Shown: positions 2,618 to 55,835 of the stretch, piece by piece
Numbering within the stretch: position 1 is the first letter of the stretch
How the letters are laid out: every line of letters starts with the position of its first letter
Virus record (IMG/VR): IMGVR_UViG_3300021399_000106
Span: 1 to 64,000 of that record
Reading direction: 5' to 3' (one strand)
Source: a virus
Taxonomy: Duplodnaviria > Caudoviricetes
DNA: 64,000 nucleotides
Notes under the pieces: model-generated
Databases searched by the model: none
What the model was told of the DNA's origin: nothing
What the model saw: the letters and a program-made list of their open reading frames with translations, nothing else
Program-made: the position numbers and the translations under genes

Positions 2618-3016
2618 ATGAAAGAAATTAATTATATGAAAGGTCAATTAGAATTAATGAATAAAAAGGAAGTTGAAAATGTTTACTATAATTGGTGTAA
2701 GGCAAATGGAAAAAAGGTAGCAAAAAGGGAAATTAAAGGTTTAACAAAGGAATCAATTATAGATAAGTATATAGTAGCAAGAAATAAAAAGATGATATGG
2801 GGGTAGAAGAATATGGAAGTTAAATTATACACAAAGAAAGAAGCTAAAGAAATAATTAAGAATCATCCAGATAAGACTTTAAGAACAAAATGTGTAGTAG
2901 TAGACCTTGTTCAAGACAACGATGGTATGGACCATGAGAAGAGAATGTATTACATTGTAGAACTTATACGTAAAGGATGTTATATTTATTCAGTTTTATT
3001 TAAGGAGAAAGAATAA
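2618..3016 (+). other. two short hypothetical ORFs (2618-2806, 2813-3016)
   Basis: ORF track, RBS. Confidence 0.6.
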
Positions 3017-29072: not shown

Positions 29073-29603
29073 ATGAAACTATTAGTTGTAGTAGATGTAC
29101 AAAATGATTTTATAACTGGGGCATTAAGAAATGAAGAGGCAATTAATAGAGTGCCTAATATTATAGAAGAAATTCTTGATTATAATCCTGATGTTATCTT
29201 TTTAACAAGGGATACACATCATGAAGATTACCTAGAAACAATGGAGGGTAAGAAATTACCATATCCTCATTGTATTGAAGGCTCTGATGGTTGGCAAATC
29301 GAAGAAAGCGTTATCAATGCAATTAGAACAACATCAGCTGCAGTTAAAATTATAGATAAAAATACTTTTGGTTATGATGGTTGGAAAGATGAATTAGCAA
29401 ATTATGAGGATGATGCAGAAACTGAAATTGAAGTTATTGGTTATTGCACAGATATTTGTGTTATATCAAATGTTTTAGGTATTAAAGCAGTTCTTCCAAA
29501 TGCAAAAATTCAAGTAAAGGAATCTTGTTGTGCTGGTGTTACAAAAGAAAGTCATGATGTTGCCTTAAAAGCAATGCAAAGTTGTCATATCGATATTATT
29601 TAG
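29073..29603 (+). CDS. pncA: nicotinamidase (isochorismatase family)
   Basis: VVDVQNDF, DTH, PHC, K, GYCTDICV motifs; NAD-cluster context. Confidence 0.88.
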   Translation: MKLLVVVDVQNDFITGALRNEEAINRVPNIIEEILDYNPDVIFLTRDTHHEDYLETMEGKKLPYPHCIEGSDGWQIEESVINAIRTTSAAVKIIDKNTFGYDGWKDELANYEDDAETEIEVIGYCTDICVISNVLGIKAVLPNAKIQVKESCCAGVTKESHDVALKAMQSCHIDII

Positions 29604-29612
29604 GTGTTATTT

Positions 29613-29804
29613 ATGGATGAAAAATTATTATTATTAATTCATTTGTTATGTCAAGTTAAAAATGTTGAGATTGAAAATTATTTATGAGAAAAGGTTAAGA
29701 AATTGGGTATAACTGAAAATATATATAACGAAAATTTTACCGATAATAAACAATTTATTAAAGATTGCATTGATGGCAAATATGAATTAATTAAAAAACA
29801 TTAA
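29613..29804 (+). CDS. hypothetical protein (TGA=Trp)
   Basis: 63 codons, one in-frame TGA, RBS AGGTG. Confidence 0.5.
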
Positions 29805-29869
29805 AAAATATTAAAAATTAGAGGTTTTACCTCTTTTTTTATTGTATATTTTATAAAGAGGTGAATAGT

Positions 29870-30700
29870 ATGAGTTTTGATGTAAATAAAACTAAACAAG
29901 AATTAGTAGAATGGGTTAGAAAAACAGTTGGCGACTGCACAGTAGTTATTGGGATTAGCGGTGGTAAAGATAGTTCAATCACTGCAGCTTTATGTGTAGA
30001 AGCATTAGGTAAGCATAAAGTATTTGGTGTATTAATGCCAGATGGTGAACAAAAAGATATTGATAAATCACATCAATTATGCGATTGTCTAGGAATAGCT
30101 AATACAACTATTAACATTCATAGAGCAACAGTTGGTTTAAGAACTGCGATATGGCAAACATCAGCAAGTCATAGTCGTAACAATATATTTGAAAAAGAAG
30201 CTCGTAAGCAATTGTTAACAATTCGAGAAGATGGAAAACAAGAACGTCTTAATGATGTATATGAAACTAATACTCCAGCAAGAATTCGTATGACAACTTT
30301 ATATGGAGTAGCTGCAATTCTAGGCAATTCAAGAGTAGCTAACACTTGTAATTTATCAGAAGACTGGGTTGGTTATTCAACAAAATATGGCGATAGTGCA
30401 GGAGACTTTTCACCACTTGCTAATTTAACAGTTCATGAGGTAAAAGCACTTGGTTATGAATTAGGTTTACCAAAGGATTTAATTGAAAAAATTCCAAGTG
30501 ATGGAATGAGTGGTAAATCAGATGAAGAAAAATTAGGATTCACTTATGATGAGTTAGATACTTATATTAGAACTGGTGTTATTGAAAATCTTGAACACAA
30601 AGAAAAGATTGATAGAATGCACAAAGCTAATTTACATAAATTAAGACTTATGCCAAAATATGAACCTGATGATTTAATGGTTAGTTTAAAGGAGGAATAA
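29870..30700 (+). CDS. nadE: NH3-dependent NAD+ synthetase
   Basis: GISGGKDS, ARIRMTTLY, GYSTKYGD, PSDG, DEEKLGFTY. Confidence 0.93.
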   Translation: MSFDVNKTKQELVEWVRKTVGDCTVVIGISGGKDSSITAALCVEALGKHKVFGVLMPDGEQKDIDKSHQLCDCLGIANTTINIHRATVGLRTAIWQTSASHSRNNIFEKEARKQLLTIREDGKQERLNDVYETNTPARIRMTTLYGVAAILGNSRVANTCNLSEDWVGYSTKYGDSAGDFSPLANLTVHEVKALGYELGLPKDLIEKIPSDGMSGKSDEEKLGFTYDELDTYIRTGVIENLEHKEKIDRMHKANLHKLRLMPKYEPDDLMVSLKEE

Positions 30701-30701
30701 A

Positions 30702-31115
30702 ATGGAATTTGATTTTTCAGATTTAAAAAAAGTTCTAGATGCATTACTAGATGCTGCAAACTGTGAATATGATGATTTAAAAATGTATAAAAATCATTAT
30801 GGAACTACTCAAAGTATATATAAAGATGTACTTTCTAATTATTTTGATGCAAAAGAAGGTTTTTCTTGTAGTTCAGATAAAGCTGGATATGTTGCATCTA
30901 TGATGGTTAAAACTTTAAAAGATGGTAAATATTATCCTTTAAAAGAAACTTATAGAGAATATCAAGCTAATGGTGGTAATATTGGTGGTATTACTGAATT
31001 AGATGAAGTTGCCTTTTGGTGTCCTAAAACAATGGAAACCACTAAAGACGCATTTGATGTATTTGTAAGATGTTTATCTAATATAAATTATAATGAGATA
31101 AGTGGAGAAGAATAA
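30702..31115 (+). CDS. hypothetical protein in NAD cluster
   Basis: ORF, RBS AGGAGG. Confidence 0.7.
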   Translation: MEFDFSDLKKVLDALLDAANCEYDDLKMYKNHYGTTQSIYKDVLSNYFDAKEGFSCSSDKAGYVASMMVKTLKDGKYYPLKETYREYQANGGNIGGITELDEVAFWCPKTMETTKDAFDVFVRCLSNINYNEISGEE

Positions 31116-31220
31116 ATATGTTTTTAAGAATTATAATTACAACAATAATATTAATTACTATAGCAATATTAGGTTTTAAACAAGATAAGTCAGAGTTTGA
31201 GTACAAGGAGAATGAATAAA

Positions 31221-31808
31221 ATGGAACAAAAAGTTTTAAGCGTAGAAAAAAATTATAATACAAAATATTTAAAATTTTATACAGCACATTATAAAACAGA
31301 TGGTAAACCTAGAGATTATTATTTTGTATCAAGAAATGATGAAAAGGATTTAGCAATTAAAAATAAGGAAATAAAACCTACAGCAATTGAGGCATTTACT
31401 TATTATTATGATGAAAATGGCGAAATGCAAGTAGTTATGATTGAAGAATTTAGATCAGCCATTGGTAGATATGTTACTTCTTTCTGTGCTGGATTAATTG
31501 AAAAAGGTGAAGATGTTAATAAAGCAATTGAAAGAGAAGTTAAAGAAGAAATAGGTGCTGATGTAGTTAGAATTAGTTTATTACAGAATTATCCATTATC
31601 AATGTGTGCTGGTATGTGTGATGAAGCAAACTATATGGCAATAGTTGAAATTAAAAATATTGGTGAACAACATTTAGAAAAAACTGAGGATATCAAGGTT
31701 AAGATTTATAATATGAATGACCTACATAGAATGGTAACTAGAAATGAAATTAATTTAACAGCATCAGGATTATTGGGTTATTTAGCTTTATATAATGACA
31801 TGGTATAA
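31221..31808 (+). CDS. Nudix hydrolase, probable ADP-ribose pyrophosphatase
   Basis: Nudix box AGLIEKGEDVNKAIEREVKEEIG, EFR, downstream AGMCDE. Confidence 0.85.
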   Translation: MEQKVLSVEKNYNTKYLKFYTAHYKTDGKPRDYYFVSRNDEKDLAIKNKEIKPTAIEAFTYYYDENGEMQVVMIEEFRSAIGRYVTSFCAGLIEKGEDVNKAIEREVKEEIGADVVRISLLQNYPLSMCAGMCDEANYMAIVEIKNIGEQHLEKTEDIKVKIYNMNDLHRMVTRNEINLTASGLLGYLALYNDMV

Positions 31809-31884
31809 ATATAGATAAATCCTATAAAATTTAATGGTTTTTAATAATTTTATTGTATATTAATTTGAAAGGTAGGTTTATAGT

Positions 31885-33069
31885 ATGAAATTAGAACCAA
31901 TTATTAGAAGTTTATTAGATACAGATTTATATAAATTTACGATGAACCAAGTGATGTTACATCGTCATACTAATTTAACAGGAACTTATATTTTTAAATG
32001 CAGAAATAAGGATGTTAAATTCACTTATGCTATGCTAGATGAAATCAATGAACAAATTGATCATTTATGCACGTTAACATTTACAGATGAGGAATTAAAT
32101 TATTTAAGAAGTATTAGATTTATTAAACCTGATTATGTAGAATTTTTAAGATTATATAGACCAATTAGAGACTATGTTAAAACTGATTTAGATGAATTAG
32201 GTAATTTAACTATTAGAGTTGATGGTCCATTATTTAGTGCAATGCAATATGAAATATATTTATTAGAAATTGTAAATGAAGTATATTTTAGAATGAAATA
32301 TGATTATCAAAAATTATGGTATAGCGCATTAATTAAAGCATCTTATAAGGTTGAGGATTTCATTACAGGTAAATATGATTTCAATTTTGCTGAATTTGGG
32401 TGTCGTAGAAGATTATCCAGAGAATGGCAAGAATATGTATTAAAAGAAATGCTAAAGACTGGACATTGTGTAGGAACAAGTAATGTTTATTTAGCAATGA
32501 AACATAATCTAACACCAATAGGAACTTATGCTCATGAATATGTTCAAATGTTCCAAGGTATTGAAACTATTCCAGTAGCACATTCAAATAGAATTGCATT
32601 AAAAGAATGGTTTGATGAATATAATGGAGATTTAGGTACAGCTTTAACTGATACCTTAACAACAGATTGTTTCTTAAAAGATTTTGATAAGTTACAAGCA
32701 ACAATGTATTCAGGTGTAAGACATGATTCTGGCGACCCTTACACATGGGGAGAAAAAATTATTGCTCACTATGAGAAATTAGGAATTGACCCTAAAACAA
32801 AAACATTATTATTCAGTGATTCATTAAATTTCGATAAAGCACAAGAAATCTATGAATATTTCAAAGGTAGAGGTAAGGTATCATTTGGTATTGGAACATT
32901 TATTACTAATGATACTTGTGAAGAACCTTTAAATATCGTTATTAAATTACAATATGTAAATGGTAGACCAGTAGCTAAGTTATCAGATGTTGAGGGTAAA
33001 TCAATGTCTCAAGATGCAGAATATACAACTTATTTAAGAAGTGCAGTTAAGAGAAGAGTTGAAGAGTAG
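31885..33069 (+). CDS. pncB: nicotinate phosphoribosyltransferase
   Basis: LLDTDLYK, EFGCRRR, GTSNV, GTYAHE, RHDSGDP, FSDSL, FGIGT, AKLSD. Confidence 0.93.
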   Translation: MKLEPIIRSLLDTDLYKFTMNQVMLHRHTNLTGTYIFKCRNKDVKFTYAMLDEINEQIDHLCTLTFTDEELNYLRSIRFIKPDYVEFLRLYRPIRDYVKTDLDELGNLTIRVDGPLFSAMQYEIYLLEIVNEVYFRMKYDYQKLWYSALIKASYKVEDFITGKYDFNFAEFGCRRRLSREWQEYVLKEMLKTGHCVGTSNVYLAMKHNLTPIGTYAHEYVQMFQGIETIPVAHSNRIALKEWFDEYNGDLGTALTDTLTTDCFLKDFDKLQATMYSGVRHDSGDPYTWGEKIIAHYEKLGIDPKTKTLLFSDSLNFDKAQEIYEYFKGRGKVSFGIGTFITNDTCEEPLNIVIKLQYVNGRPVAKLSDVEGKSMSQDAEYTTYLRSAVKRRVEE

Positions 33070-33234
33070 TGAAACAAGATTTTAAGGATTTTTTAAATAA
33101 ATTCAGAAATATTAAATTAGCATACCTACATAACCTATATTTTATATTTACTGGAGATAGAAAACCTTATGATGCTTATATGAAGTATATTGAAAAATAT
33201 GGCTTAGTAGAATTAGTGGATATAGGTAATTTTT

Positions 33235-33840
33235 ATGGATAAAAAGTTTAAATTAGGATTTATGGTAGGTAGAATGCAACCTATCCATAAAGGACATCAA
33301 CAATTAATTGATTTAGGATTAGAATTATGTGAAAGATTTGTTATACTATTAGGTTCTAGTAATGAATCTAGAACTAAAAGTAATCCTTTAACTTTTACTG
33401 AAAGATATGATTTAATTAAAAAAATATATGGAGATAAAGTTGAAATATATCCTATTGTAAATATTGGTATTGGATTTGTGCCTGAATGGGGTAATTATAT
33501 AATGAATACTATGAAATTCTACTGTGATTCTTATCCTGATTTTTATATCGGTGGTGTTGAAGAAGGTAGAAAAGATGTATTTAATAATTATCCTAATCTT
33601 TCAACATTATATATAGGTAGAGATAAAATTGATGTTTCAGCAACTCAAATTAGAGATCTTGTTAAAAATATCGCTTATCCTATGTATATGAATACAGACA
33701 GAATGTTGATTCATATGTCAAATATAGAAGATAGATTAAAACAGTTAATTGATGAAAAAATTGTACAAAATGTTCTAGGGTATAGAGGTGTAATAAAAGA
33801 TACCTACAAAGAAAATAATGGGAAGGAAGCGAATTCATAA
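33235..33840 (+). CDS. nicotinamide/nicotinate-nucleotide adenylyltransferase (NadM/NadR type)
   Basis: GRMQPIHKGH, NPLTFTER, VSATQIR. Confidence 0.85.
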   Translation: MDKKFKLGFMVGRMQPIHKGHQQLIDLGLELCERFVILLGSSNESRTKSNPLTFTERYDLIKKIYGDKVEIYPIVNIGIGFVPEWGNYIMNTMKFYCDSYPDFYIGGVEEGRKDVFNNYPNLSTLYIGRDKIDVSATQIRDLVKNIAYPMYMNTDRMLIHMSNIEDRLKQLIDEKIVQNVLGYRGVIKDTYKENNGKEANS

Positions 33841-38183: not shown

Positions 38184-38259
38184 ACCGGCGTAGCTCAACT
38201 GGTAGAGTCGCGGTCTTCAAAACCGTTGGTTGTGGGTTCGAGTCCTACCGCCGGTACCA
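38184..38259 (+). tRNA. tRNA-Trp(TCA), UGA-decoding
   Basis: 76-nt cloverleaf, anticodon TCA at 38217-38219, short variable loop (not Sec), A73, CCA. Confidence 0.92.
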
Positions 38260-38328
38260 GTCAGTATAATGGTTTATGGATTCATTTCTATAAACCATTT
38301 TTATTTTATATAGGAAAGGAATTAAATT

Positions 38329-39315
38329 ATGCAAAGAATGATAAGTGGTATTAAACCAACAGGAAAAGTAACGTTAGGAAATTATATTGGTGCAATAAAA
38401 CAATTTATAAAATATCAAGATGATTATGATTTATGGGTTTTTATAGCGGATTTGCACGCATTAACACTTCCTATAAGCCAAAAGGAGTTACTCGAAAATA
38501 CGGAGAATTTAGCGGCGATTTATATAGCTGCTGGATTAGATCCTAAAAAGGTAACTTTATTTAAACAATCTAGTATTGTTGGACCTACAGAATTAAGTTG
38601 GTTACTAACTTGTAATACTGTTTTAGGTGAATTAACTAAAATGCCACAATATAAAAATTATTGTGAAAATCATAAAGGTGAAGGTGTTCCAACTGGTATG
38701 TTAATGTATCCTTCCTTAATGAGTGCCGATATATTATTATATGATGCTGATTATGTTCCAGTAGGGGAAGATCAAAAATCGCATGTTGATTTATGTAGAG
38801 ATATGGCTGAAAAGTTTAATAAAAGATATCCTGATAGTTTTAAATTACCTGAAACTATATTAGCTAAACAAGGTGCCAAAATAATGAGTTTATCAAATCC
38901 TACAAAGAAAATGAGTAAATCAGAATCTGATAAAGGAACAATTTATATTTTAGATGATATAGAAATATCTAAGAAAAAAATTATGAAAGCTTTAACTGAT
39001 AGTGAAGATAAAGTATATTATGATCCAATTAATAAACCAGGAATTTCAAATCTATTAACAATTTATAGCTGTTTAAGTGGAGAAGATATTAAAGTAATTG
39101 AAGATAGATATAAAGATGCTATTAATTATGGTATATTTAAGAAAGATTTATGTACATTATTAGAAAAGGAATTATTACCTATTCAAGAAAAAGTTAGAAA
39201 GTTAAAAGAAAGTGGAGATTTGGATTTAATATTATTTAATGGCTCATTATCTGCACAATCAGCTGCAAAAAGAAAAATTACAGAAATTTATAAAAAAGTT
39301 GGTTTATTAGATTAA
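38329..39315 (+). CDS. trpS: tryptophanyl-tRNA synthetase
   Basis: SGIKPTG.TLGNYIGA, ADLHA, YP.LMSADIL, PVGEDQ, KMSKS. Confidence 0.95.
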   Translation: MQRMISGIKPTGKVTLGNYIGAIKQFIKYQDDYDLWVFIADLHALTLPISQKELLENTENLAAIYIAAGLDPKKVTLFKQSSIVGPTELSWLLTCNTVLGELTKMPQYKNYCENHKGEGVPTGMLMYPSLMSADILLYDADYVPVGEDQKSHVDLCRDMAEKFNKRYPDSFKLPETILAKQGAKIMSLSNPTKKMSKSESDKGTIYILDDIEISKKKIMKALTDSEDKVYYDPINKPGISNLLTIYSCLSGEDIKVIEDRYKDAINYGIFKKDLCTLLEKELLPIQEKVRKLKESGDLDLILFNGSLSAQSAAKRKITEIYKKVGLLD

Positions 39316-39864: not shown

Positions 39865-39965
39865 AAGACAGTTACAGCAATTCTAAATGCTAGACAAATG
39901 GATAAGTCAATTTCCTGCTAAGAAATCATTTTGGGTTCAAATCCCAAGCAAATAAAACTGTCTTG
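39865..39965 (+). ncRNA. clamp element E1 with acceptor-truncated tRNA-Ser(GCT)-like module
   Basis: AAGACAGTT-ACAGCAA...AACTGTCTTG around D, anticodon and T arms. Confidence 0.7.
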
Positions 39966-40302: not shown

Positions 40303-40420
40303 AAGACTCATACTGCAATTATTCCATTCTAGGATTTTTAGCTCATTTGGTAGAGCGTCAAACTTGTAATTTGAAAGTAGCAGGTTCAAGTCCTGCAGAA
40401 TCTATGATAAACGAGTCTTG
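40303..40420 (+). ncRNA. clamp element E2 enclosing CCA-less tRNA-Thr(TGT)-like module (40332-40404)
   Basis: AAGACTC-ATACTGCAA...AAAC-GAGTCTTG. Confidence 0.7.
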
Positions 40421-42203: not shown

Positions 42204-42279
42204 GTGCCTGTAGCTCAGATGGTAGAGCACTTGACTTTTAATCAAGGGGTCACGAGTTCGAACCTCGTCGGGCACACCA
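42204..42279 (+). tRNA. tRNA-Lys(TTT)
   Basis: cloverleaf, CCA. Confidence 0.92.
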
Positions 42280-44284: not shown

Positions 44285-44347
44285 TTAAAAAATATAATAT
44301 TTTGGTAAAAGATATTGTATATATAATATGTAAAATAAAAATTTAAG

Positions 44348-44410
44348 AGACACAGACAGCAAACAATTAATGCAATCAACTTTTAATTGATCAGGCAAAA
44401 ACGTGTCTAG
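44348..44410 (+). ncRNA. clamp element E3 in 5' UTR of DUF2828 gene, carrying a Lys(TTT) anticodon stem-loop
   Basis: AGACAC-AGACAGCAA..ATCAA-CTTTTAA-TTGAT..AAAC-GTGTCTAG directly before RBS. Confidence 0.7.
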
Positions 44411-44425
44411 AAAGGAAGATTAATT

Positions 44426-46057
44426 ATGGATTTTTATGGAACAATGCAAAAGGTACAAAATAATGTATCAGTAACTGAAAATGGTATGGAAGGATACAAG
44501 ACAACTTTCCACCCATTACTAGATATGAATTTCAAGGTAACTTCATATCGTAAGCTTACAGATAGAGATATCTGTAATGATATTGACCAAATAATTTCTC
44601 AAGCAGAGGATGCTCAATATCTATTAAAATTCTTATTTATGGTAAGAGATGTTAGAGATGGTTTAGGAGAAAGAAGATTATTTAGAGTTGCATTAAAGCA
44701 TCTATTAAATACTGCTAATTTCGATAATAAGACTGAAATAATTTCAGACTTAATTAAAACTCAAATTTCTAATTTTGGTAGATTTGATGACTTATTTATT
44801 TTCGTAGGTACCCCTTATGAAAATATCTTAATTAAAACAATTAAGAATCAATTAAAGTCAGACTATGAGAATATGTTAGCTAATAAGAGCATTTCATTAT
44901 TAGCTAAGTGGATGCCATCTGAAAATGCTTCTTCAAAGGAAACTAAGAAGTTAGCAACAGCAATTAGAAAGGCATTAAATGCAGATTCTAAGACTTATAG
45001 AAAAACTTTATCAGCATTAAGAGCATATTTAAAGGTAACTGAAACTTATACTTCAGCTAATGAATGGGATAAGATTGATTATAATCAAGTTCCTTCTAAG
45101 GCAAACTTAAAGTATAAGGATGCATTCTTAAAGCATGATGAGGAAAGACGTAGAGATTACTTAGCTGCATTAAGAGTTGGTGTTGATAAGGAAGGTAATA
45201 AGGTTAAGATTAATTCTTCAGTTAACTTCCCACATGAAATTGTTGCTAAGTATACTAAGAAAAGCTACTGGAGCTTACAATTATCTGAATATGATGAAGC
45301 ATTAGAACAATTATGGAAGAATTTAAAGCAAAAAGATGGTTTAAATAACACAATCGTTGTTAGAGATGGTTCTGGTTCAATGACTTCAACAATTGGTAAT
45401 GGCGATACAACTGCATTAGATGTTTCAACAGCATTAGCAATTTATTGTTCAGAACATTTAAATTCAGGATTTAAGGATAAATTCTTAACATTCTCAAGTA
45501 GAGCTAAGTTAATTGATTTAAGTGCTGAAACTAATTTACATAACAAATTAAATAAGGTATTTAAAGAGGATGATTGCTCAAATACAAACATTGAAGATGT
45601 ATTCGATGTAATTTTAAATACAGCTGTTAATGGTAATGTTGCACCTGAGGATATGCCAGCACAAGTATTAATTATTTCAGATATGGAATTTGATGGTGCT
45701 TATGGTGGAAATAGATTCAATGGTACAAGCAACGTATTCAAGAAAGCAGCTACTAAGTATGCCAATGCAGGTTACAAGTTACCTAAATTAGTATTCTGGA
45801 ATGTATGCTCTAGAACAAATACTATCCCAGTAACACAAAATGAAAATGGTGTAGTATTAGTATCAGGATTCTCAGTTAATACCTTAAATATGGTATTAAA
45901 TGGAAAGACTTCACCTTGGTTATCATTAGTAGATGAATTAACTACAGAAAAGTATAATTCAATTCCATTATTAGCTAATGTAGTGAAGGCTAATGTAAAG
46001 GTAAATACTACTAAGAGAACCTCTAAGTCAAATAAGACACCTGATTTCTTAAAGTAA
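44426..46057 (+). CDS. DUF2828-family protein (Ro60/TROVE-like helical region + vWA domain)
   Basis: RDVRDGLGERRLFR, LLAKWMPSE, IDYNQVPS, MIDAS DGSGSM, IISDMEFD, PKLVFWNV, LVSGFS. Confidence 0.8.
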   Translation: MDFYGTMQKVQNNVSVTENGMEGYKTTFHPLLDMNFKVTSYRKLTDRDICNDIDQIISQAEDAQYLLKFLFMVRDVRDGLGERRLFRVALKHLLNTANFDNKTEIISDLIKTQISNFGRFDDLFIFVGTPYENILIKTIKNQLKSDYENMLANKSISLLAKWMPSENASSKETKKLATAIRKALNADSKTYRKTLSALRAYLKVTETYTSANEWDKIDYNQVPSKANLKYKDAFLKHDEERRRDYLAALRVGVDKEGNKVKINSSVNFPHEIVAKYTKKSYWSLQLSEYDEALEQLWKNLKQKDGLNNTIVVRDGSGSMTSTIGNGDTTALDVSTALAIYCSEHLNSGFKDKFLTFSSRAKLIDLSAETNLHNKLNKVFKEDDCSNTNIEDVFDVILNTAVNGNVAPEDMPAQVLIISDMEFDGAYGGNRFNGTSNVFKKAATKYANAGYKLPKLVFWNVCSRTNTIPVTQNENGVVLVSGFSVNTLNMVLNGKTSPWLSLVDELTTEKYNSIPLLANVVKANVKVNTTKRTSKSNKTPDFLK

Positions 46058-46069
46058 AAAAATAAATAA

Positions 46070-46230
46070 AAGACACATACAGCGATATTTATATCATGCT
46101 TGAGGAGCCGCCGATGGAGGTATGAAATCCTCCCTTCCCGACCAAGAGCTATTAAGTTTAATTATTTAATAGTTGTTGCTCGGGAAGTAGCTTAATATTC
46201 ATAGAGCAGCGATTGATAAAACGTGTCTTG
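46070..46230 (+). ncRNA. clamp element E4 with circularly permuted tRNA-Pro-like module
   Basis: order T-arm, CTTCCCG-ACCA, linker hairpin, CGGGAAG, D-arm; AAGACAC/GTGTCTT clamp. Confidence 0.75.
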
Positions 46231-46255: not shown

Positions 46256-46396
46256 AAGACATTTACTGCAATTCTAACGATTATCACATGTCAAGTGAGT
46301 GACGGTGGTTCGATTCCATCCTCCCCTGCCATTTATTATAATATATAGGGGAGTAGTTCAGTGGTAGAATGCTAAAAAATCAACCAAAATGTCTTG
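46256..46396 (+). ncRNA. clamp element E5 with circularly permuted tRNA-Asp(GTC)-like module
   Basis: order anticodon arm, T-arm, CTCCCCT-GCCA, linker, AGGGGAG, D-arm; AAGACATTT/AAATGTCTT clamp. Confidence 0.8.
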
Positions 46397-46440: not shown

Positions 46441-46573
46441 TAGACACATACAGCAACTTTTAATCTTTTAGATTACTATAGGTTCAAATCCTATCTCAGC
46501 AACATTGCTAAGTGGCGAAAATGGTATACGCAAACTACTTAAAATAGTTATAATGAAAAAGAAACGTGTCTAG
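46441..46573 (+). ncRNA. clamp element E6 with circularly permuted tRNA-Leu(TAA)-like module
   Basis: order T-arm, loop-closed acceptor CTCAGCA/TGCTAAG, D-arm, anticodon arm; TAGACAC/GTGTCTA clamp. Confidence 0.78.
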
Positions 46574-46585
46574 AAATTAAAATAG

Positions 46586-46618
46586 ATTGGTATTTTACTA
46601 GTAATACCAATTTTTTTA
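46586..46618 (+). terminator. intrinsic terminator after clamp-RNA cluster
   Basis: ATTGGTATT..AATACCAAT+T-run. Confidence 0.65.
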
Positions 46619-46647: not shown

Positions 46648-46875
46648 ATGTTATTTTTAGAAACAAGTTCAGAATCTATGACATTATTTACAGCTTTAGT
46701 AATTGTGTTAGTAATAGCATTAGGAATAGTTGTATTATTAATTACATTAAAAACTAATCGATTATTTCCTTTTCATAAAATGCATAAAGAAGATGAAGAT
46801 AATTGTTATGATATGAATCTAAGAAAATCAAGTTCAGTAAAAAAGGATGAAAGAGGAAATAAATGGAAACATTAG
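46648..46875 (+). CDS. small membrane protein
   Basis: single TM helix, RBS GAGGTG. Confidence 0.6.
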   Translation: MLFLETSSESMTLFTALVIVLVIALGIVVLLITLKTNRLFPFHKMHKEDEDNCYDMNLRKSSSVKKDERGNKWKH

Positions 46876-48197
46876 CTAAGTTTAAAGAATTTGTTGATGA
46901 AATTCAACAAAATAATTCAAGAAATTATAAATTAGAAGTTTTAAAGAAATGATCCGATAATCCAATAATTCGTGTATATTTAGATTTTATTTATAATCCT
47001 TATAAGATTACTGGTATTTCAGAAAAGAAGTTATATAAGGAAATTTGAATGGAATCTGAAGAGATTACAAGTATGTATCAGCTTATGGATTATTTATTAA
47101 CTCATAATACCGGTAGAGATGAAGATATTTGTAAGGTTCAGCAATTCAAAGATTTATTAGATGTTGATTATTATGAATTATTTGATGCTATAATTACAAA
47201 ATCATTAACATTAGGTGTTGATGTATTAAGTATTAATAAATGTATGGGAAACTTCATTCCGCAATTTTCAGTCCAACTTGCCAATAAATATTTTGATAAA
47301 CCTGAAATTGTAGAAGGTAAATCATTTGCATTAACTAGAAAAATTGATGGATCCAGAATTATTGCTATTAAAGAAAATGGTGAAGTTACCTTCTATACTA
47401 GACAGGGACAATTATATGAGGGATTGGTTGATTTAGAAAAAGAAATGTTAGAAACTATGCCTGATAATATTTGTTTAGATGGTGAATTAACTATATTAGA
47501 TGCTAATGGTTTAAGTAGTAAAGACCAATATAAAGCGTGTATGAAAATTTCTAGAAAAGATGGAATTAAACATGGTTTAAAAATGTTAGTATTTGATTGT
47601 ATGAATGCGTCAGAATTTAAAAATCAATTCTGTAATAGACCATATAAGAGTAGAAGACAAATGCTAGTTCAAATTTTTAGAAATAATTTTGTTATGGATG
47701 GGGTTAACTATGATTCTGATTTAGCAAATCTAAACCATACTTATTTTGAAATGTTACCTATTTTATATGAAGGTGAAGATACACAACAAATAATGCCTAT
47801 TCTAAATAAAATGGTTGATAATGGCGAAGAAGGTATTATGATTAATATTTTAGACGCACCTTATGAGTTCCGTAGGACTCCGAATTTGTTGAAAGTCAAA
47901 AAAATGCAAGATTTAGATTTAGAGGTAATTGGTTATGAAGAAGGCTCTGGAAACTTTGCAGGAATGTTAGGTGCTTTATTAGTTAGATATAAACAAGGAA
48001 ATACTGTTAAAGTAGGTTCAGGATTGAATAAAGAATTAAGACAAGAAATTTGGAAAGATCCTGATTCATATATCGGTAAAATTATTTCAGTTCAATATTT
48101 TGAAGAAACAACAAATCAAAATGGTGGATTGAGTTTGAGATTTCCAGTCTTTTTAGAGTTTAGAAATCCAGCAGATAAAAACGTAGCAGATTTTTAG
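46863..48197 (+). CDS. ATP-dependent DNA ligase (TGA=Trp)
   Basis: KIDG, LDGEL, EEGIM, LLKVKK, KVGSG, SLRFPVF; N-terminus extends through TGA 46950 and 47046. Confidence 0.9.
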
Positions 48198-50487: not shown

Positions 50488-50578
50488 TAGTTACACACAG
50501 CAATTTAATAATACAAATACATGAACAACATTTATATCATTGTTTGGATACGAAAGTAATTAGTAGGTTCGTAACTAG
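50488..50578 (+). ncRNA. clamp element E7 (non-tRNA cargo)
   Basis: TAGTTAC-ACACAGCAA...C-GTAACTAG. Confidence 0.55.
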
Positions 50579-50710: not shown

Positions 50711-50835
50711 AGTCGCATACAGCAAAATAAAAAATCTTTTAAAAAGAAGACAAATAATACAATCAAAAAAATTATTTTGATAGTTATGGCGACTGTGAAT
50801 GCCTATATATAAAAGACAATAGCGAAAGCGACTAG
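50711..50835 (+). ncRNA. clamp element E8 (non-tRNA cargo)
   Basis: AGTCGC-ATACAGCAA with GCGACT partners at 50789 and 50828. Confidence 0.55.
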
Positions 50836-52062: not shown

Positions 52063-53193
52063 ATGGAATTAGCGTTATTAAAATTTATAAAAGAACATGA
52101 AAATTGGGAAGAATTATTAACTAGAGACCCATATAACCTAAAAATAAATAGAGATGGTAAATATATTATATTTAAATATAATCAATTATGTTCTGATTTT
52201 AATTTACCAGAAGTTCAAGAAGCCCGAGGTATAATTTTTAGAGAATCAGATTGGAAGTGTGTTTGTCACGCCTTCAATAAGTTTGGAAATTATGGTGAAT
52301 CATATTGCCCTGAAATAGATTGGTCAACTGCATCTGTTCAAGAAAAAGTTGATGGTTCATTAATGAAAGTTTGGTATGATGAATATTGGCATATATCAAC
52401 TAATGGTACTATAGATGCTTTTAAAGCACCATTAGAATGTGCTAATAAAGAAATAACTTCTTATGGAGAACTATTCTTATATTGTTTAAAAGAAAATAAA
52501 CCTTCATTTCCATTTCAAGATTTTATTTCATTTTTAGATAAAGAATATTGTTTTATGTTTGAAATGGTATCACCTTATAATAGGGTTGTTATTGAGTACC
52601 TTGAATCTAAGTTATATTATTTAGGATGTAGAAATATGAGCACTCATCAAGAGTATGGTTTTGCAGATTATTTTCATATTCCATTTGTTAATGGTTTGGG
52701 TAATATATTAAATATGCCAAAACTATATCCATTACATACCTTAAAAGAAGTTCAAGAAGCAGCAAATGCCTTACCTTGGAATGAAGAAGGTTATGTAGTA
52801 TGTGATGCTAATTTCAATAGAGTTAAGATTAAATCTCCAGAATATGTTTTAGCGCATCACGGAAGAACTAATGGTAATATTTCTATTTCAAGATTATTAG
52901 AAATAATTTTAAATAATGAGATAGATGAATTCTTAATTTATGCAGATGAATATAAAGATAAAATAAATAATTTAATTGCTGAAATGGAATTATTTAAAAC
53001 TCAAGTTAAATTAGAAATTATAAATCTAGCTCCAGCAAATTATACTTCAAGAAAAGAATATGCAGAAGTAGTTAAGAGATACCCAGCATATATGCAATAT
53101 TTCTTATTTAGATATAAAACTATTAATGAAGAATTTAAGAAAATAAATATTTCTGGTTGGAAAAAGATATTAAGTGCGAGAGGCATTATTTAA
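52063..53193 (+). CDS. T4 Rnl1-like RNA ligase
   Basis: EARG, KFGN, EKVDGSL, FEMVSPYNRVV, EEGYVV, RVKIKSPEY. Confidence 0.85.
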   Translation: MELALLKFIKEHENWEELLTRDPYNLKINRDGKYIIFKYNQLCSDFNLPEVQEARGIIFRESDWKCVCHAFNKFGNYGESYCPEIDWSTASVQEKVDGSLMKVWYDEYWHISTNGTIDAFKAPLECANKEITSYGELFLYCLKENKPSFPFQDFISFLDKEYCFMFEMVSPYNRVVIEYLESKLYYLGCRNMSTHQEYGFADYFHIPFVNGLGNILNMPKLYPLHTLKEVQEAANALPWNEEGYVVCDANFNRVKIKSPEYVLAHHGRTNGNISISRLLEIILNNEIDEFLIYADEYKDKINNLIAEMELFKTQVKLEIINLAPANYTSRKEYAEVVKRYPAYMQYFLFRYKTINEEFKKINISGWKKILSARGII

Positions 53194-54809: not shown

Positions 54810-55835
54810 ATGATAAAATTTATAATGTTAATTGGTTTACCAGGAAGTGGTAAATCTACCTACGCAAACAAATTAATAGATAATAATACCGTATGGTTAT
54901 CTTCTGATAAAATAAGAGAAGAAATTTATGGAACTGAAGAGGAACAAAAAAATCCAGCATTAGTTTTCTCAATTATGTTTGATAGAACAGTTGAAAATCT
55001 AAATAATAATAAGAATGTTATTTATGATGCTACAAATATTAATAGAAAACTTAGAAAAGATTTATTAGATAGATTAAAAAGAAAAGTAAATAATGTCTAT
55101 TATGAATGTGTGCTAGTATATACAAACTTAGAAGAATGTAAGAAAAGAAATTCAAAAAGAGATAGAAAAGTTCCTGAATCTATAATTGATAAAATGGTTA
55201 AAAATTTTGAAGTTCCTGTTAAAGGAGAAGGTTGGGATAATATTGAAGTTAATTATACAACTAAACCATCAGTACCTTATGATAAAGTTATTGATATTTT
55301 TGTAAGTAAAGAGCCTCATGATAATCCTCATCATAATATGGATATTGATTTACATATGTATGCTGCTTGGGATTATTATGTAACACATTATGAATATGGT
55401 ATAGATAATTATTTAAAATATGCCATCTTATTTCATGATATAGGTAAGAAATTCTGTAAAACATATTATAATAGAAGGAATGAATTATGTGAAAAGGCAC
55501 ATTATTACCAACATGCAAATGCTGGAGCATATTTCGCTTTTGATATAGATTTTTCTAATTATAATGACCCTTATTTTGATGGAATATATCAAGATAAAGA
55601 ATTTACAGAAAATGATAAATACAATATGATAATATTAATTAACTATCATATGAGACCTCTAGAAGCTTGGAAGGATTCTAAAAAATCTGAAAATAAAGAT
55701 AAACTAATTTTAGGTGATAAATTATTTAATTATCTTGAAATATTACATGATTGTGATAAGAATTCTGAAGAGGATGAAAAGTTTGTTAAATGGTTTCTTG
55801 AAAAAATGGTTAAGGTATATAGAGGTGAAAACTAA
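54810..55835 (+). CDS. polynucleotide kinase-like (AAA_33 P-loop) fused to HD domain
   Basis: GLPGSGKST, SSDKIR, YDATN, RN..R; H..LFHDIGK..H..HM..D. Confidence 0.82.
   Translation: MIKFIMLIGLPGSGKSTYANKLIDNNTVWLSSDKIREEIYGTEEEQKNPALVFSIMFDRTVENLNNNKNVIYDATNINRKLRKDLLDRLKRKVNNVYYECVLVYTNLEECKKRNSKRDRKVPESIIDKMVKNFEVPVKGEGWDNIEVNYTTKPSVPYDKVIDIFVSKEPHDNPHHNMDIDLHMYAAWDYYVTHYEYGIDNYLKYAILFHDIGKKFCKTYYNRRNELCEKAHYYQHANAGAYFAFDIDFSNYNDPYFDGIYQDKEFTENDKYNMIILINYHMRPLEAWKDSKKSENKDKLILGDKLFNYLEILHDCDKNSEEDEKFVKWFLEKMVKVYRGEN

What the first reader, a model, noticed from the sequence alone, without database searches (positions are those of the whole stretch)
44315..44430. Clamp with a bare Lys(UUU) anticodon stem-loop abutting the RBS of the DUF2828 gene: possible autoregulatory tRNA-damage sensor
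Seen: smallest clamp copy (63 nt) holds ATCAA-CTTTTAA-TTGAT, matching the CTTTTAA loop of tRNA-Lys(TTT) at 42204; its 3' arm ends at 44410 and the RBS AAAGGAAG starts at 44411. Known: tRNA-Lys(UUU) is the target of PrrC and PARIS AriB. Inference: protein bound to the clamp represses its own translation, and cleavage of the loop or titration by the other clamps derepresses it.
Basis: inference. Interest (0 to 1): 0.75.

Follow-up and report, generated by a model that had tools for sequence, protein, structure and literature searches.

The report
Anticodon-loop mimic RNA in Ro60-like leader
The 61-base hairpin just before this gut phage's Ro60-like gene is a real, conserved small RNA module: a fixed "handle" that travels with that protein in many phages, carrying a copy of a lysine tRNA's anticodon arm whose anticodon is swapped in closely related phages, so it looks like an exchangeable bait for factors that read or cut tRNA anticodons.

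Summary
The element at 44348-44408 is the smallest of eight "handle" RNAs in this 166-kb phage. Each has a 6-bp closing helix followed by ACAGCAA.

- **Partner gene:** the DUF2828/DUF7788 protein is predicted to fold like Ro60.
- **Distribution:** the handle lies on that gene's strand in 178 cases against 4 in 80 related loci. It also occurs in Listeria P100, Bacillus FADO and mycobacteriophage Faith1, with covarying helices.
- **Cargo:** a 5-bp stem with a 7-nt loop identical to the phage's own tRNA-Lys(UUU) anticodon loop.
- **New here:** ten close relatives keep handle, stem and ribosome-site abutment, but the anticodon triplet changes (UUU, UGU, GUU, GGU, CCA, CCC). U33 and A37 stay fixed.

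The element is most likely a Y-RNA-like partner of the Ro60-like protein that displays an exchangeable anticodon bait. Feedback on translation is plausible in this clade but is not the conserved core, because the same RNAs also sit downstream of the gene or 20-45 nt from the ribosome site elsewhere. Binding, decoy action and cleavage sensing are all untested.

This scan has noted the same RNA family on other genomes, and I found no publication describing it.

The parts
44312..44327 (+). Promoter-like motif (degenerate form of the phage's recurrent ATTGTATAAT extended -10 motif), about 20 nt before the handle.
   Evidence: The motif occurs 23 times on the + strand of the genome (repeats D19/D20). 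A similar motif sits at the same position in relatives L132, L087 and L088, and L001 has a TTGACA/TATAAT pair. The consensus promoter scan was uninformative in this AT-rich DNA. Inference.
44348..44353 (+). Handle helix, 5' strand (AGACAC).
   Evidence: Pairs with 44403-08. The helix covaries across loci (AGACGC/GCGTCT, AGGCAC/GTGCCT, GGAATC/GATTCC in P100, GGACGC/GCGTCC in Faith1).
44356..44362 (+). Conserved unpaired ACAGCAA motif, 2 nt after the helix. Presumed protein-recognition site.
   Evidence: Invariant in alignment A2. Present in P100, FADO, Faith1 and Felixounavirus loci.
44375..44391 (+). Anticodon-arm mimic: 5-bp stem (44375-79 with 44387-91) and 7-nt loop CTTTTAA (44380-86), the same loop as tRNA-Lys(UUU).
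   Evidence: RNAalifold consensus of nine leaders chosen by position gives this hairpin, with three compensatory pairs. The CTTTTAA loop occurs on 10 different stems. The triplet is swapped in relatives.
44403..44408 (+). Handle helix, 3' strand (GTGTCT), preceded by an A-rich strand.
44411..44418 (+). Shine-Dalgarno sequence AAAGGAAG of the Ro60-like gene, 2 nt after the handle.
   Evidence: The arrangement GYGTCT-RG-AAAGGA is kept in 10 of 10 close relatives.
44426..46057 (+). Ro60-like protein gene (DUF2828 + DUF7788, 543 aa).
   Evidence: Pfam hits. AlphaFold2 model with pLDDT 77. The top 12 Foldseek PDB hits are all full-length Ro60/TROVE structures, E 4e-8 to 8e-5. A DxSxS MIDAS motif is invariant.
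46071..46228 (+). Handle RNA B (tRNA-like T arm, loop-closed acceptor, D arm).
46257..46394 (+). Handle RNA C (permuted tRNA-like cargo). Its helix AGACAT/ATGTCT is a compensatory variant.
   Evidence: Sub-threshold YrlA hit at 46300-46370, 21.6 bits.
46442..46571 (+). Handle RNA D (permuted tRNA-Leu(UAA)-like cargo, including an anticodon arm).
   Evidence: (repeat D13).
46587..46617 (+). AT-rich hairpin followed by a run of seven T. Likely terminator of the promoter-leader-gene-B-C-D unit.
   Evidence: Read from the sequence. Not called by the consensus scan because it has fewer than 3 G-C pairs. Inference.
39866..39963 (+). Further handle RNA: tRNA-Ser(GCU)-like body with the handle in place of the acceptor stem.
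   Evidence: ARAGORN calls its inner part a tRNA-Ser.
40304..40418 (+). Further handle RNA enclosing a whole tRNA-Thr(UGU).
50711..50794 (+). Further handle RNA (AGTCGC/GCGACT). A weaker candidate lies at 50489-50561.
42204..42279 (+). The phage's own tRNA-Lys(UUU), whose 7-nt anticodon loop the leader copies.

Best explanation
The element is the leader-borne member of a family of small "handle" RNAs that partner phage Ro60-like (DUF2828/DUF7788) proteins. This is a Y-RNA-like arrangement.

**The handle.** It consists of a 6-7-bp helix joining the two ends, ACAGCAA on the 5' side and an A-rich 3' strand. It is the constant part and is most likely the protein's binding site, as the Y-RNA stem is for Ro60.

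**The cargo.** Here it is the minimal one, a bare anticodon arm with the loop of tRNA-Lys(UUU).

**Transcription.** The RNA is transcribed as the first ~90 nt of the protein's own mRNA, in one unit with three larger tRNA-like handle RNAs.

**Proposed action.** The protein-RNA particle presents the anticodon loop as an exchangeable bait. The bait would engage a factor that recognises or cuts anticodon loops, for example a host anticodon nuclease.

**Feedback.** In this clade the handle ends 2 nt before the Shine-Dalgarno sequence. Protein bound to the unprocessed leader would therefore also hinder ribosome entry and give negative feedback.

**Shown:** the structure, its conservation and covariation, linkage to the gene, the predicted Ro60-like fold of the protein, anticodon swapping, and the position.

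**Inferred:** protein binding, bait or decoy action, and feedback.
For: **Partner fold**
- The 12 best PDB matches of the model are all Ro60/TROVE over the full length.

**Linkage, gene-first sample**
- Handle RNAs of 45-70 nt occur 178 times on the gene's strand and 4 times on the opposite strand across 80 homologous loci.
- 54 of 80 loci have one ending within 150 nt upstream of the gene, and 27 of 80 have one starting within 150 nt downstream.

**Linkage, handle-first sample**
- 49 of 117 loci (median 8 kb) hold a DUF2828 homologue.

**Reach**
- The handle occurs beside the gene in P100, FADO and Faith1, with different but pairing helices.

**Structure**
- RNAalifold on nine leaders chosen by position returns the handle plus a 5-bp/7-nt hairpin, with four compensatory pairs.
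- In A2, 10 of 11 pairs show compensatory change.

**Anticodon mimicry**
- 53 of 153 unique small handle RNAs carry a perfect 5-bp/7-nt hairpin with a YU-NNN-R loop. Cargo shuffles give 3.9 +/- 1.9, maximum 10.
- The commonest loops are CTTTTAA (Lys), CTTGAAA, CTGCTAA, CTCATAA, TTTGGGN and CTGTTAA.

**Swapping**
- Leaders of relatives at 73-89% protein identity keep the stem, U33 and A37.
- Their triplets read UGU, GUU, GGU, CCA or CCC.
- The UGU and GUU loops equal this phage's own tRNA-Thr and tRNA-Asn loops.
- UUU, UGU and GUU are the three tRNA targets reported for the PARIS nuclease AriB (PMC12409363).

**Context**
- Nearby genes are Tpt1, a T4 Rnl1-type RNA ligase, an AAA_33 kinase and an ATP-dependent ligase.
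Against: - No binding, expression or end-mapping data exist. RNA-library contigs did not cover the leader.
- On this copy alone, the predicted fold hides the 3' half of the loop in an alternative helix (probability 0.91 against 0.04 for the anticodon arm).
- About two thirds of small handle RNAs show no clean anticodon-type hairpin, and the closest IMG/VR relative (L001) has a different cargo in its leader. An anticodon bait cannot therefore be the only use of the handle.
- The rows of A2 were pre-selected for pairing, so its 99.6% paired figure is circular.
- The match to the AriB target set is post hoc, the host is unknown, and AriB also needs D-loop contacts that a bare arm lacks.
Confidence: 0.6

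Rival explanations
1. The leader is an autoregulatory operator and tRNA-damage sensor. The protein bound to the handle represses its own translation, and cleavage of the Lys loop by an anticodon nuclease, or titration by the other handle RNAs, derepresses it.
For: - The handle ends 2 nt from the Shine-Dalgarno sequence here and in 10 of 10 close relatives. The same holds in separate lineages L015, L029, L031 and L071.
- 34 of 80 loci have a handle ending within 45 nt of the start codon, which is inside a 30S footprint.
- Seven other handle copies in the genome could compete for the protein.
- RNA-repair genes lie nearby.
Against: - The commonest handle-to-ribosome-site gap in other lineages is 22-48 nt.
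- The same Lys-arm handle RNA lies downstream of the gene or far from it in other phages.
- In P100 three handles precede the gene with a further hairpin between them and the ribosome site, and in Faith1 all three follow the gene.
- The loop is not Lys-specific.
- Nothing indicates that cutting the loop would release a protein bound about 20 nt away on the handle.
Confidence: 0.15
2. A purely cis-acting 5' element. The terminal stem-loop stabilises or marks the mRNA for processing, and neither the protein nor the anticodon-like loop matters.
For: - It sits about 20 nt from the likely transcription start.
- 5'-terminal hairpins are known mRNA stabilisers (general knowledge).
- In L085 and L133 the leader directly follows a tRNA 3' end, so processing must occur there.
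Against: - The same handle closes free-standing RNAs with tRNA-like cargo on either side of the gene.
- The unpaired ACAGCAA is invariant while the helix covaries, which is the signature of a sequence-specific ligand.
- Anticodon-type loops are enriched 13-fold over shuffles.
Confidence: 0.08
3. A chance AT-rich hairpin, or a decaying tRNA-Lys fragment without function.
For: - The genome is AT-rich, and CTTTTAA is a low-complexity heptamer.
- The MFE fold of this copy is not the anticodon arm.
Against: - Expected 0.01 per window.
- Conserved by position in relatives with compensatory stem changes.
- The Lys loop occurs on 10 different stems.
- Strong strand bias, 178 against 4.
Confidence: 0.02

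Closest known systems
Ro60 (Rsr) with Y RNAs, especially bacterial and phage YrlA/YrlB (Rfam RF02553; Chen et al. 2014, PMC4201824; Thermus phage phiLo Ro60 with Yrl1/2, PMC12135203)
   Same: - The partner protein is predicted to have the Ro60 ring-plus-vWA fold.
- The RNAs are encoded next to the gene on the same strand.
- Each RNA is a helix joining the 5' and 3' ends plus a variable module, often tRNA-like.
- The operon layout resembles rsr-yrlBA-rtcBA, with RNA-repair enzymes nearby.
   Different: - The protein belongs to Pfam DUF2828/DUF7788, not TROVE.
- The conserved RNA motif is ACAGCAA, not GNCGAA.
- No Rfam hit to this element, and only 21.6 of the required 69 bits for copy C.
- The cargo here is a bare anticodon arm, and its anticodon differs among close relatives.
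- One copy sits in the gene's own leader, against the ribosome site.
Dictyostelium Class I RNAs (Aspegren 2004; Kjellin 2021, PMC7919456; search pattern in PMC5054030)
   Same: - Length is 42-65 nt.
- A short covarying stem joins the ends and is followed directly by a conserved motif that ends ACAGCAA.
- The published search pattern is GTTGRC-CTTACAGCAA ... GTCAAC-TG.
- The rest of the RNA is variable, and the function is unknown.
   Different: - These are eukaryotic RNAs with their own DUSE promoter.
- Three rather than two nucleotides separate the stem from ACAGCAA.
- The known binding protein is the RRM protein Rnp1A.
- A link to a DUF2828 protein in amoebae was not tested here.
Translational operators in the leaders of RNA-binding protein genes (for example T4 gp32, RegA and gp43, and ribosomal-protein operons that mimic rRNA or tRNA)
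   Same: A copy of the protein's presumed RNA ligand lies in its own mRNA next to the ribosome-binding site.
   Different: Repression is not shown. In many relatives the same RNA lies too far from the ribosome site or after the gene.
Phage answers to anticodon nucleases: T4 Pnkp/Rnl1 repair of PrrC-cut tRNA-Lys (general knowledge) and T5 tRNA-Lys/Thr/Asn variants that neutralise PARIS AriB (PMC11464382, PMC12409363)
   Same: - The anticodons on display include Lys UUU, Thr UGU and Asn GUU.
- An Rnl1-type ligase and a kinase are encoded nearby.
   Different: Those are full tRNAs that replace the cut ones, or enzymes that reseal them. Here a non-chargeable anticodon arm sits on a protein-binding handle. 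Use as a decoy is a hypothesis.

Membership tests
ACAGCAA-handle RNAs linked to DUF2828 genes (no published name found) | A 6-7-bp helix joining the 5' and 3' ends, with sequence free to covary. | tested here: met
   AGACAC/GTGTCT here. Other helices pair in relatives and in distant phages.
ACAGCAA-handle RNAs linked to DUF2828 genes (no published name found) | Unpaired ACAGCAA two nucleotides after the 5' strand, and an A-rich strand before the 3' strand. | tested here: met
   44356-62, and AAAAAC at 44397-44402. Invariant columns in A2.
ACAGCAA-handle RNAs linked to DUF2828 genes (no published name found) | Same strand as, and close to, a DUF2828/DUF7788 gene. | tested here: met
   Ends 17 nt before the start codon. 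Strand bias in relatives is 178 against 4. 49 of 117 handle-first loci hold the gene.
YrlA / bacterial Y RNA (Rfam RF02553) | Score at or above Rfam's gathering threshold (69 bits). | tested here: not met
   No hit to 44348-44408 at E up to 10. Copy C scores 21.6 bits over its tRNA-like part only.
YrlA / bacterial Y RNA (Rfam RF02553) | GNCGAA(N0-1)G motif in the Ro60-binding module (PMC4201824). | tested here: not met
   No CGAA occurs in the element. ACAGCAA takes that place.
YrlA / bacterial Y RNA (Rfam RF02553) | Bound by a Ro60 orthologue. | not testable with these tools
   The partner is Ro60-like by predicted fold only. No binding data.
Ro60/TROVE proteins (for the partner gene) | Pfam TROVE domain match. 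| tested here: not met
   Only DUF2828, DUF7788 and a sub-threshold HexPS-like match (22.5 bits against a cutoff of 28.9) are found. No PDB relative by sequence or by profile.
Ro60/TROVE proteins (for the partner gene) | Helical-repeat ring plus a C-terminal vWA domain with a MIDAS motif. | tested here: met
   Full-length Foldseek matches to 9kop, 9l5y, 1yvr and 2nvo, TM 0.32-0.56. DxSxS (D314, S316, S318) is invariant in 22 homologues. This rests on a model with pLDDT 77.
tRNA | Cloverleaf recognised by ARAGORN or Rfam RF00005. | tested here: not met
   No call at 44348-44408. Only the anticodon arm is present.
Dictyostelium Class I RNA | Short terminal stem followed by the conserved 11-nt motif. 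Length 42-65 nt. | tested here: inconclusive
   The stem, the length (61 nt) and the last 7 nt of the motif (ACAGCAA) match the published pattern. The first 4 nt and the spacing differ, and no homology test was possible.
Autoregulatory translational operator | The protein's RNA site overlaps or abuts its own ribosome-binding site, and the protein represses translation. | tested here: inconclusive
   The position criterion is met here and in 10 of 10 close relatives. It is not general across the family. Repression is not testable with these tools.

The most novel reading that the evidence does not exclude
Phage Ro60-like particles are programmable anticodon baits. The handle docks the RNA on the ring protein, and the displayed anticodon arm captures or distracts host anticodon nucleases, or marks ribosomes starved for that tRNA. 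The triplet is exchanged in an arms race: UUU, UGU and GUU on one stem, the set cut by PARIS AriB. In this clade, the copy in the gene's leader couples the state of the bait to synthesis of the protein.
Probability: 0.2. Interest if true: 0.9.

Novelty: new variant of a known kind. Interest (0 to 1): 0.77.

Why it matters
**A second, widespread Ro/Y-RNA-type system.** Ro60 and Y RNAs are conserved from bacteria to humans, yet what the tRNA-like parts of bacterial Y RNAs are for is still open. This family is found in cultured phages of Listeria, Bacillus, Mycobacterium, Escherichia and others.

**The cargo is reduced to its minimum.** It is an anticodon arm whose anticodon changes between near-identical phages. 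That points directly at anticodon recognition as the function and makes it testable with small RNAs and known nucleases.

**If it is a decoy, it is a new counter-defence.** It would be a new kind of phage answer to tRNA-cutting immunity, alongside replacement tRNAs and repair enzymes.

**A possible protein partner for amoebal RNAs.** The shared ACAGCAA motif also offers a lead for the unexplained Class I RNAs of social amoebae.

Tried and rejected
- **Rfam.** Neither the gathering-threshold scan nor the E-value scan gave a family for the element.
- **PDB by sequence and by profile.** No relative of the protein. Only the fold search worked.
- **Consensus promoter/terminator scan.** Fewer promoter-like sites than in shuffles and no terminator call in this AT-rich DNA. 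Uninformative.
- **Metagenome pattern scan for handle + ribosome site.** 38 loci were returned. Apart from L095, L127 and the offset pair L111/L126, none carried a handle.
- **Viral-contig version of the same pattern.** 4 loci, 2 of them real.
- **RNA libraries.**
  - Only assembled contigs were available.
  - In the metatranscriptome of the likely source sample, two identical contigs cover 45390-45741 and 45915-46140.
  - None covers the leader.
  - This says nothing about expression or RNA ends.
- **Literature.** The term DUF2828 returns only plant and tardigrade papers. The Ro60/Y RNA/phage searches turned up no description of an ACAGCAA handle RNA.
- **First loose handle scan.** It gave 502 hits on the gene strand and 182 on the other, too many false positives. 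It was replaced by the stricter one.
- **Complex prediction.** Not used, because it scores protein pairs only.
- **Loop pairing with the ribosome site.** Considered and dropped: only 3-4 weak pairs are possible.
Full report
**1. Observation**

The sequence is as described.
- The helix is AGACAC (44348-53) paired with GTGTCT (44403-08).
- ACAGCAA lies at 44356-62.
- The hairpin is ATCAA / CTTTTAA / TTGAT at 44375-91.
- The Shine-Dalgarno sequence AAAGGAAG is at 44411-18, and the ATG at 44426.

The phage's tRNA-Lys(UUU) at 42204-79 has the same 7-nt loop on a different stem. The clamp pattern is expected 0.01 times per window. The element is the smallest of eight such RNAs. All lie on the + strand between 39.8 and 50.8 kb of a 166.5-kb contig.

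**2. The neighbouring protein**

ORF 44426-46057 matches DUF2828 and DUF7788. It has no sequence relative in the PDB.

An AlphaFold2 model built from 22 homologues has pLDDT 77. Its 12 best Foldseek matches are all full-length Ro60/TROVE structures: Thermus phage phiLo, Xenopus, Deinococcus and human. A DxSxS MIDAS motif is invariant.

Homologues occur in 710 cultured-phage records. Some are annotated "Ro-like RNA binding protein" in mycobacteriophages, and Faith1's protein is DUF2828/DUF7788 by Pfam.

**3. The RNA family**

- In 80 IMG/VR loci holding homologues at 44-74% identity, handle RNAs of 45-70 nt occur 178 times on the gene's strand and 4 times on the other.
- 54 loci have one ending within 150 nt upstream, and 27 have one starting within 150 nt downstream.
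- Sampling by the handle instead, 49 of 117 loci (median 8 kb) contain the gene.
- In Listeria P100, Bacillus FADO and mycobacteriophage Faith1 the handle recurs beside the gene. The helices differ but still pair, while NN-ACAGCAA and the A-rich 3' strand stay the same.
- Larger copies carry tRNA-like cargo. Copy C gives a sub-threshold YrlA hit over its T arm, acceptor and D arm. Copy D is a permuted tRNA-Leu-like body.
- Elsewhere in the window, one handle replaces the acceptor stem of a tRNA-Ser-like body and another encloses a whole tRNA-Thr.
- No Rfam family matches.
- The YrlA Ro-binding motif GNCGAA is absent.

**4. The cargo is an anticodon-arm mimic**

Of 153 unique small handle RNAs, 53 carry a perfect 5-bp stem with a 7-nt loop of the form YU-NNN-R-N. 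Cargo shuffles give 3.9 +/- 1.9, with a maximum of 10.

The commonest loops are standard anticodon loops: Lys UUU (14, on 10 different stems), Ser UGA, Ser GCU, Met CAU, Pro UGG and Asn GUU. A handle-first sample gives the same picture.

RNAalifold on nine leaders chosen by homologous position predicts exactly the handle plus this hairpin, with compensatory changes in one handle pair and three hairpin pairs. A pair count on 21 diverse copies shows compensatory change in 10 of 11 pairs. Those rows were pre-selected for pairing, so the percentage paired is circular.

**5. Anticodon swapping**

The table lists the leaders of nine of the ten close relatives plus the window. L086, the tenth, is a second contig whose leader is identical to L085's.

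| Locus | Protein identity | Hairpin stem | Loop triplet |
|---|---|---|---|
| window | 100% | ATCAA/TTGAT | UUU |
| L132 | 89% | ATCAA/TTGAT | UGU |
| L134 | 81% | ATCAA/TTGAT | GUU |
| L085 | 82% | ATCAA/TTGAT | GGU |
| L133 | 83% | ATTAA/TTGAT | GGU |
| L087, L136 | 78%, 73% | TTTGA/TCAAA | UUU |
| L088 | 76% | TTTGA/TCAAA | CCA |
| L135 | 75% | TTTGA/TCAAA | CCC |
| L001 | 74% | no anticodon arm | - |

- All ten keep the handle and the junction GYGTCT-RG-AAAGGA.
- U33 and A37 never change.
- The window, L132 and L134 differ at only four columns of 61, and two of those lie in the triplet.
- The UGU and GUU loops are identical to this phage's own tRNA-Thr and tRNA-Asn loops.
- UUU, UGU and GUU are the three tRNAs reported as targets of the PARIS nuclease AriB, whose site includes U36-A-A-U39. 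All three loops keep that sequence.

This match is post hoc. The host is unknown, and AriB also reads the D loop.

**6. Position and the autoregulation idea**

A promoter-like motif lies about 20 nt upstream. It is a degenerate form of ATTGTATAAT, which occurs 23 times on the + strand. An AT-rich hairpin plus a T run follows copy D. So the leader, the gene and copies B-D look like one transcription unit, although this is inference.

The handle ends 2 nt before the Shine-Dalgarno sequence here, in the ten close relatives, and in four further lineages. Across the 80 loci:
- 48 have a handle ending within 65 nt of the start codon.
- The usual handle-to-ribosome-site gap is 22-48 nt.
- The very same Lys-arm RNA lies just after the gene in L005/6, L011/14/16/22 and L023, and about 1.3 kb upstream of it in L009.

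Feedback through the leader copy is therefore plausible in this clade, but it cannot be what the family is for. Nothing bears on derepression by loop cleavage.

**7. Caveats**

- For this copy alone, the energy model favours an alternative helix between the 5' linker and the 3' half of the loop (probability 0.91 against 0.04).
- That helix is also possible in L132, L133 and L134, but not in L085, L087, L088, L135 or L136.
- Two thirds of the small handle RNAs show no clean anticodon hairpin.
- There are no expression or binding data.

**8. Context**

The surrounding genes point to RNA repair and counter-defence:
- Tpt1 directly upstream.
- An ATP-dependent ligase read with TGA as Trp, and a T4 Rnl1-type RNA ligase.
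- An AAA_33 kinase and NAD-salvage enzymes.

**9. Comparison and novelty**

The system works like Ro60 with Y RNAs. It fails the membership tests for YrlA (score and motif) and for Pfam TROVE.

The handle motif matches the published pattern for Dictyostelium Class I RNAs.

Earlier notes of this scan describe the same handle family, including anticodon-arm cargo, on other genomes. I found no paper that describes it.

I rate it a new variant of a known kind.

Noticed in passing
window 44363-44389: In this copy the 5' linker CAAUUAA can pair with UUAAUUG (the 3' half of the loop plus the stem). This hides the anticodon loop, with predicted probability 0.91. The same alternative is possible in L132, L133 and L134 but not in five other relatives. 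It could be a conformational switch or a by-product of AT-richness.
   Followed up: partly
window 40304-40418 and 39866-39963: One handle encloses a complete tRNA-Thr(UGU). Another replaces the acceptor stem of a tRNA-Ser(GCU)-like body, which ARAGORN reports as a tRNA-Ser. tRNA counts for such phages may therefore include handle RNAs.
   Followed up: partly
L081 944-1495 (Listeria phage P100): A ROOL RNA match just below Rfam's threshold (86 against 99.1 bits, E 4e-16) lies about 650 nt upstream of P100's three tandem handle RNAs and its Ro60-like gene gp165. An RtcB-type ligase follows downstream.
   Followed up: no
L081 815-889 and 1783-1853: The P100 RefSeq record annotates two tRNAs on the strand opposite to the one on which Rfam finds them, which is the gene's strand. 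This is probably a strand error in the record.
   Followed up: no
window 38184-39315 and 46863-48197: A tRNA with anticodon UCA sits next to a class I Trp/Tyr-type synthetase gene. The ATP-dependent ligase ORF is open only if two in-frame TGA codons are read as Trp. This indicates partial TGA recoding in the phage.
   Followed up: partly
window 29073-33840, 52063-53193, 54810-55835: The handle-RNA region is flanked by NAD-salvage genes (nicotinamidase-like, NAD synthase, Nudix, NAPRTase, a nucleotidyltransferase), a T4 Rnl1-type RNA ligase and an AAA_33/KTI12-like kinase. Together they look like a counter-defence and RNA-repair island.
   Followed up: partly
L085 about 2375-2420; L133 about 30-75: In these relatives the leader handle directly follows the 3' end of a tRNA gene, with no promoter motif of its own. 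The handle RNA and the gene must there be cut out of a tRNA-containing transcript.
   Followed up: no
L017, L046 and related loci, about 2850-3000: Where the handle lies 25-45 nt from the ribosome site, its 5' flank (CTCCAA) extends the handle helix. It could alternatively pair with the GGAGG of the ribosome site, giving a possible anti-Shine-Dalgarno switch.
   Followed up: no
L084 4214-4278 and 4857-4980 (Escherichia phage fjerdesal): Two handle RNAs lie inside the tRNA array just downstream of the DUF2828 gene of a Felixounavirus that grows on E. coli K-12. This is a convenient experimental system for the family.
   Followed up: partly
whole genome (G000), + strand: The motif ATTGTATAAT (an extended -10 type) occurs 23 times on the + strand and 9 times on the - strand, mostly just before genes or RNA genes. 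It is probably the phage's early or middle promoter.
   Followed up: partly
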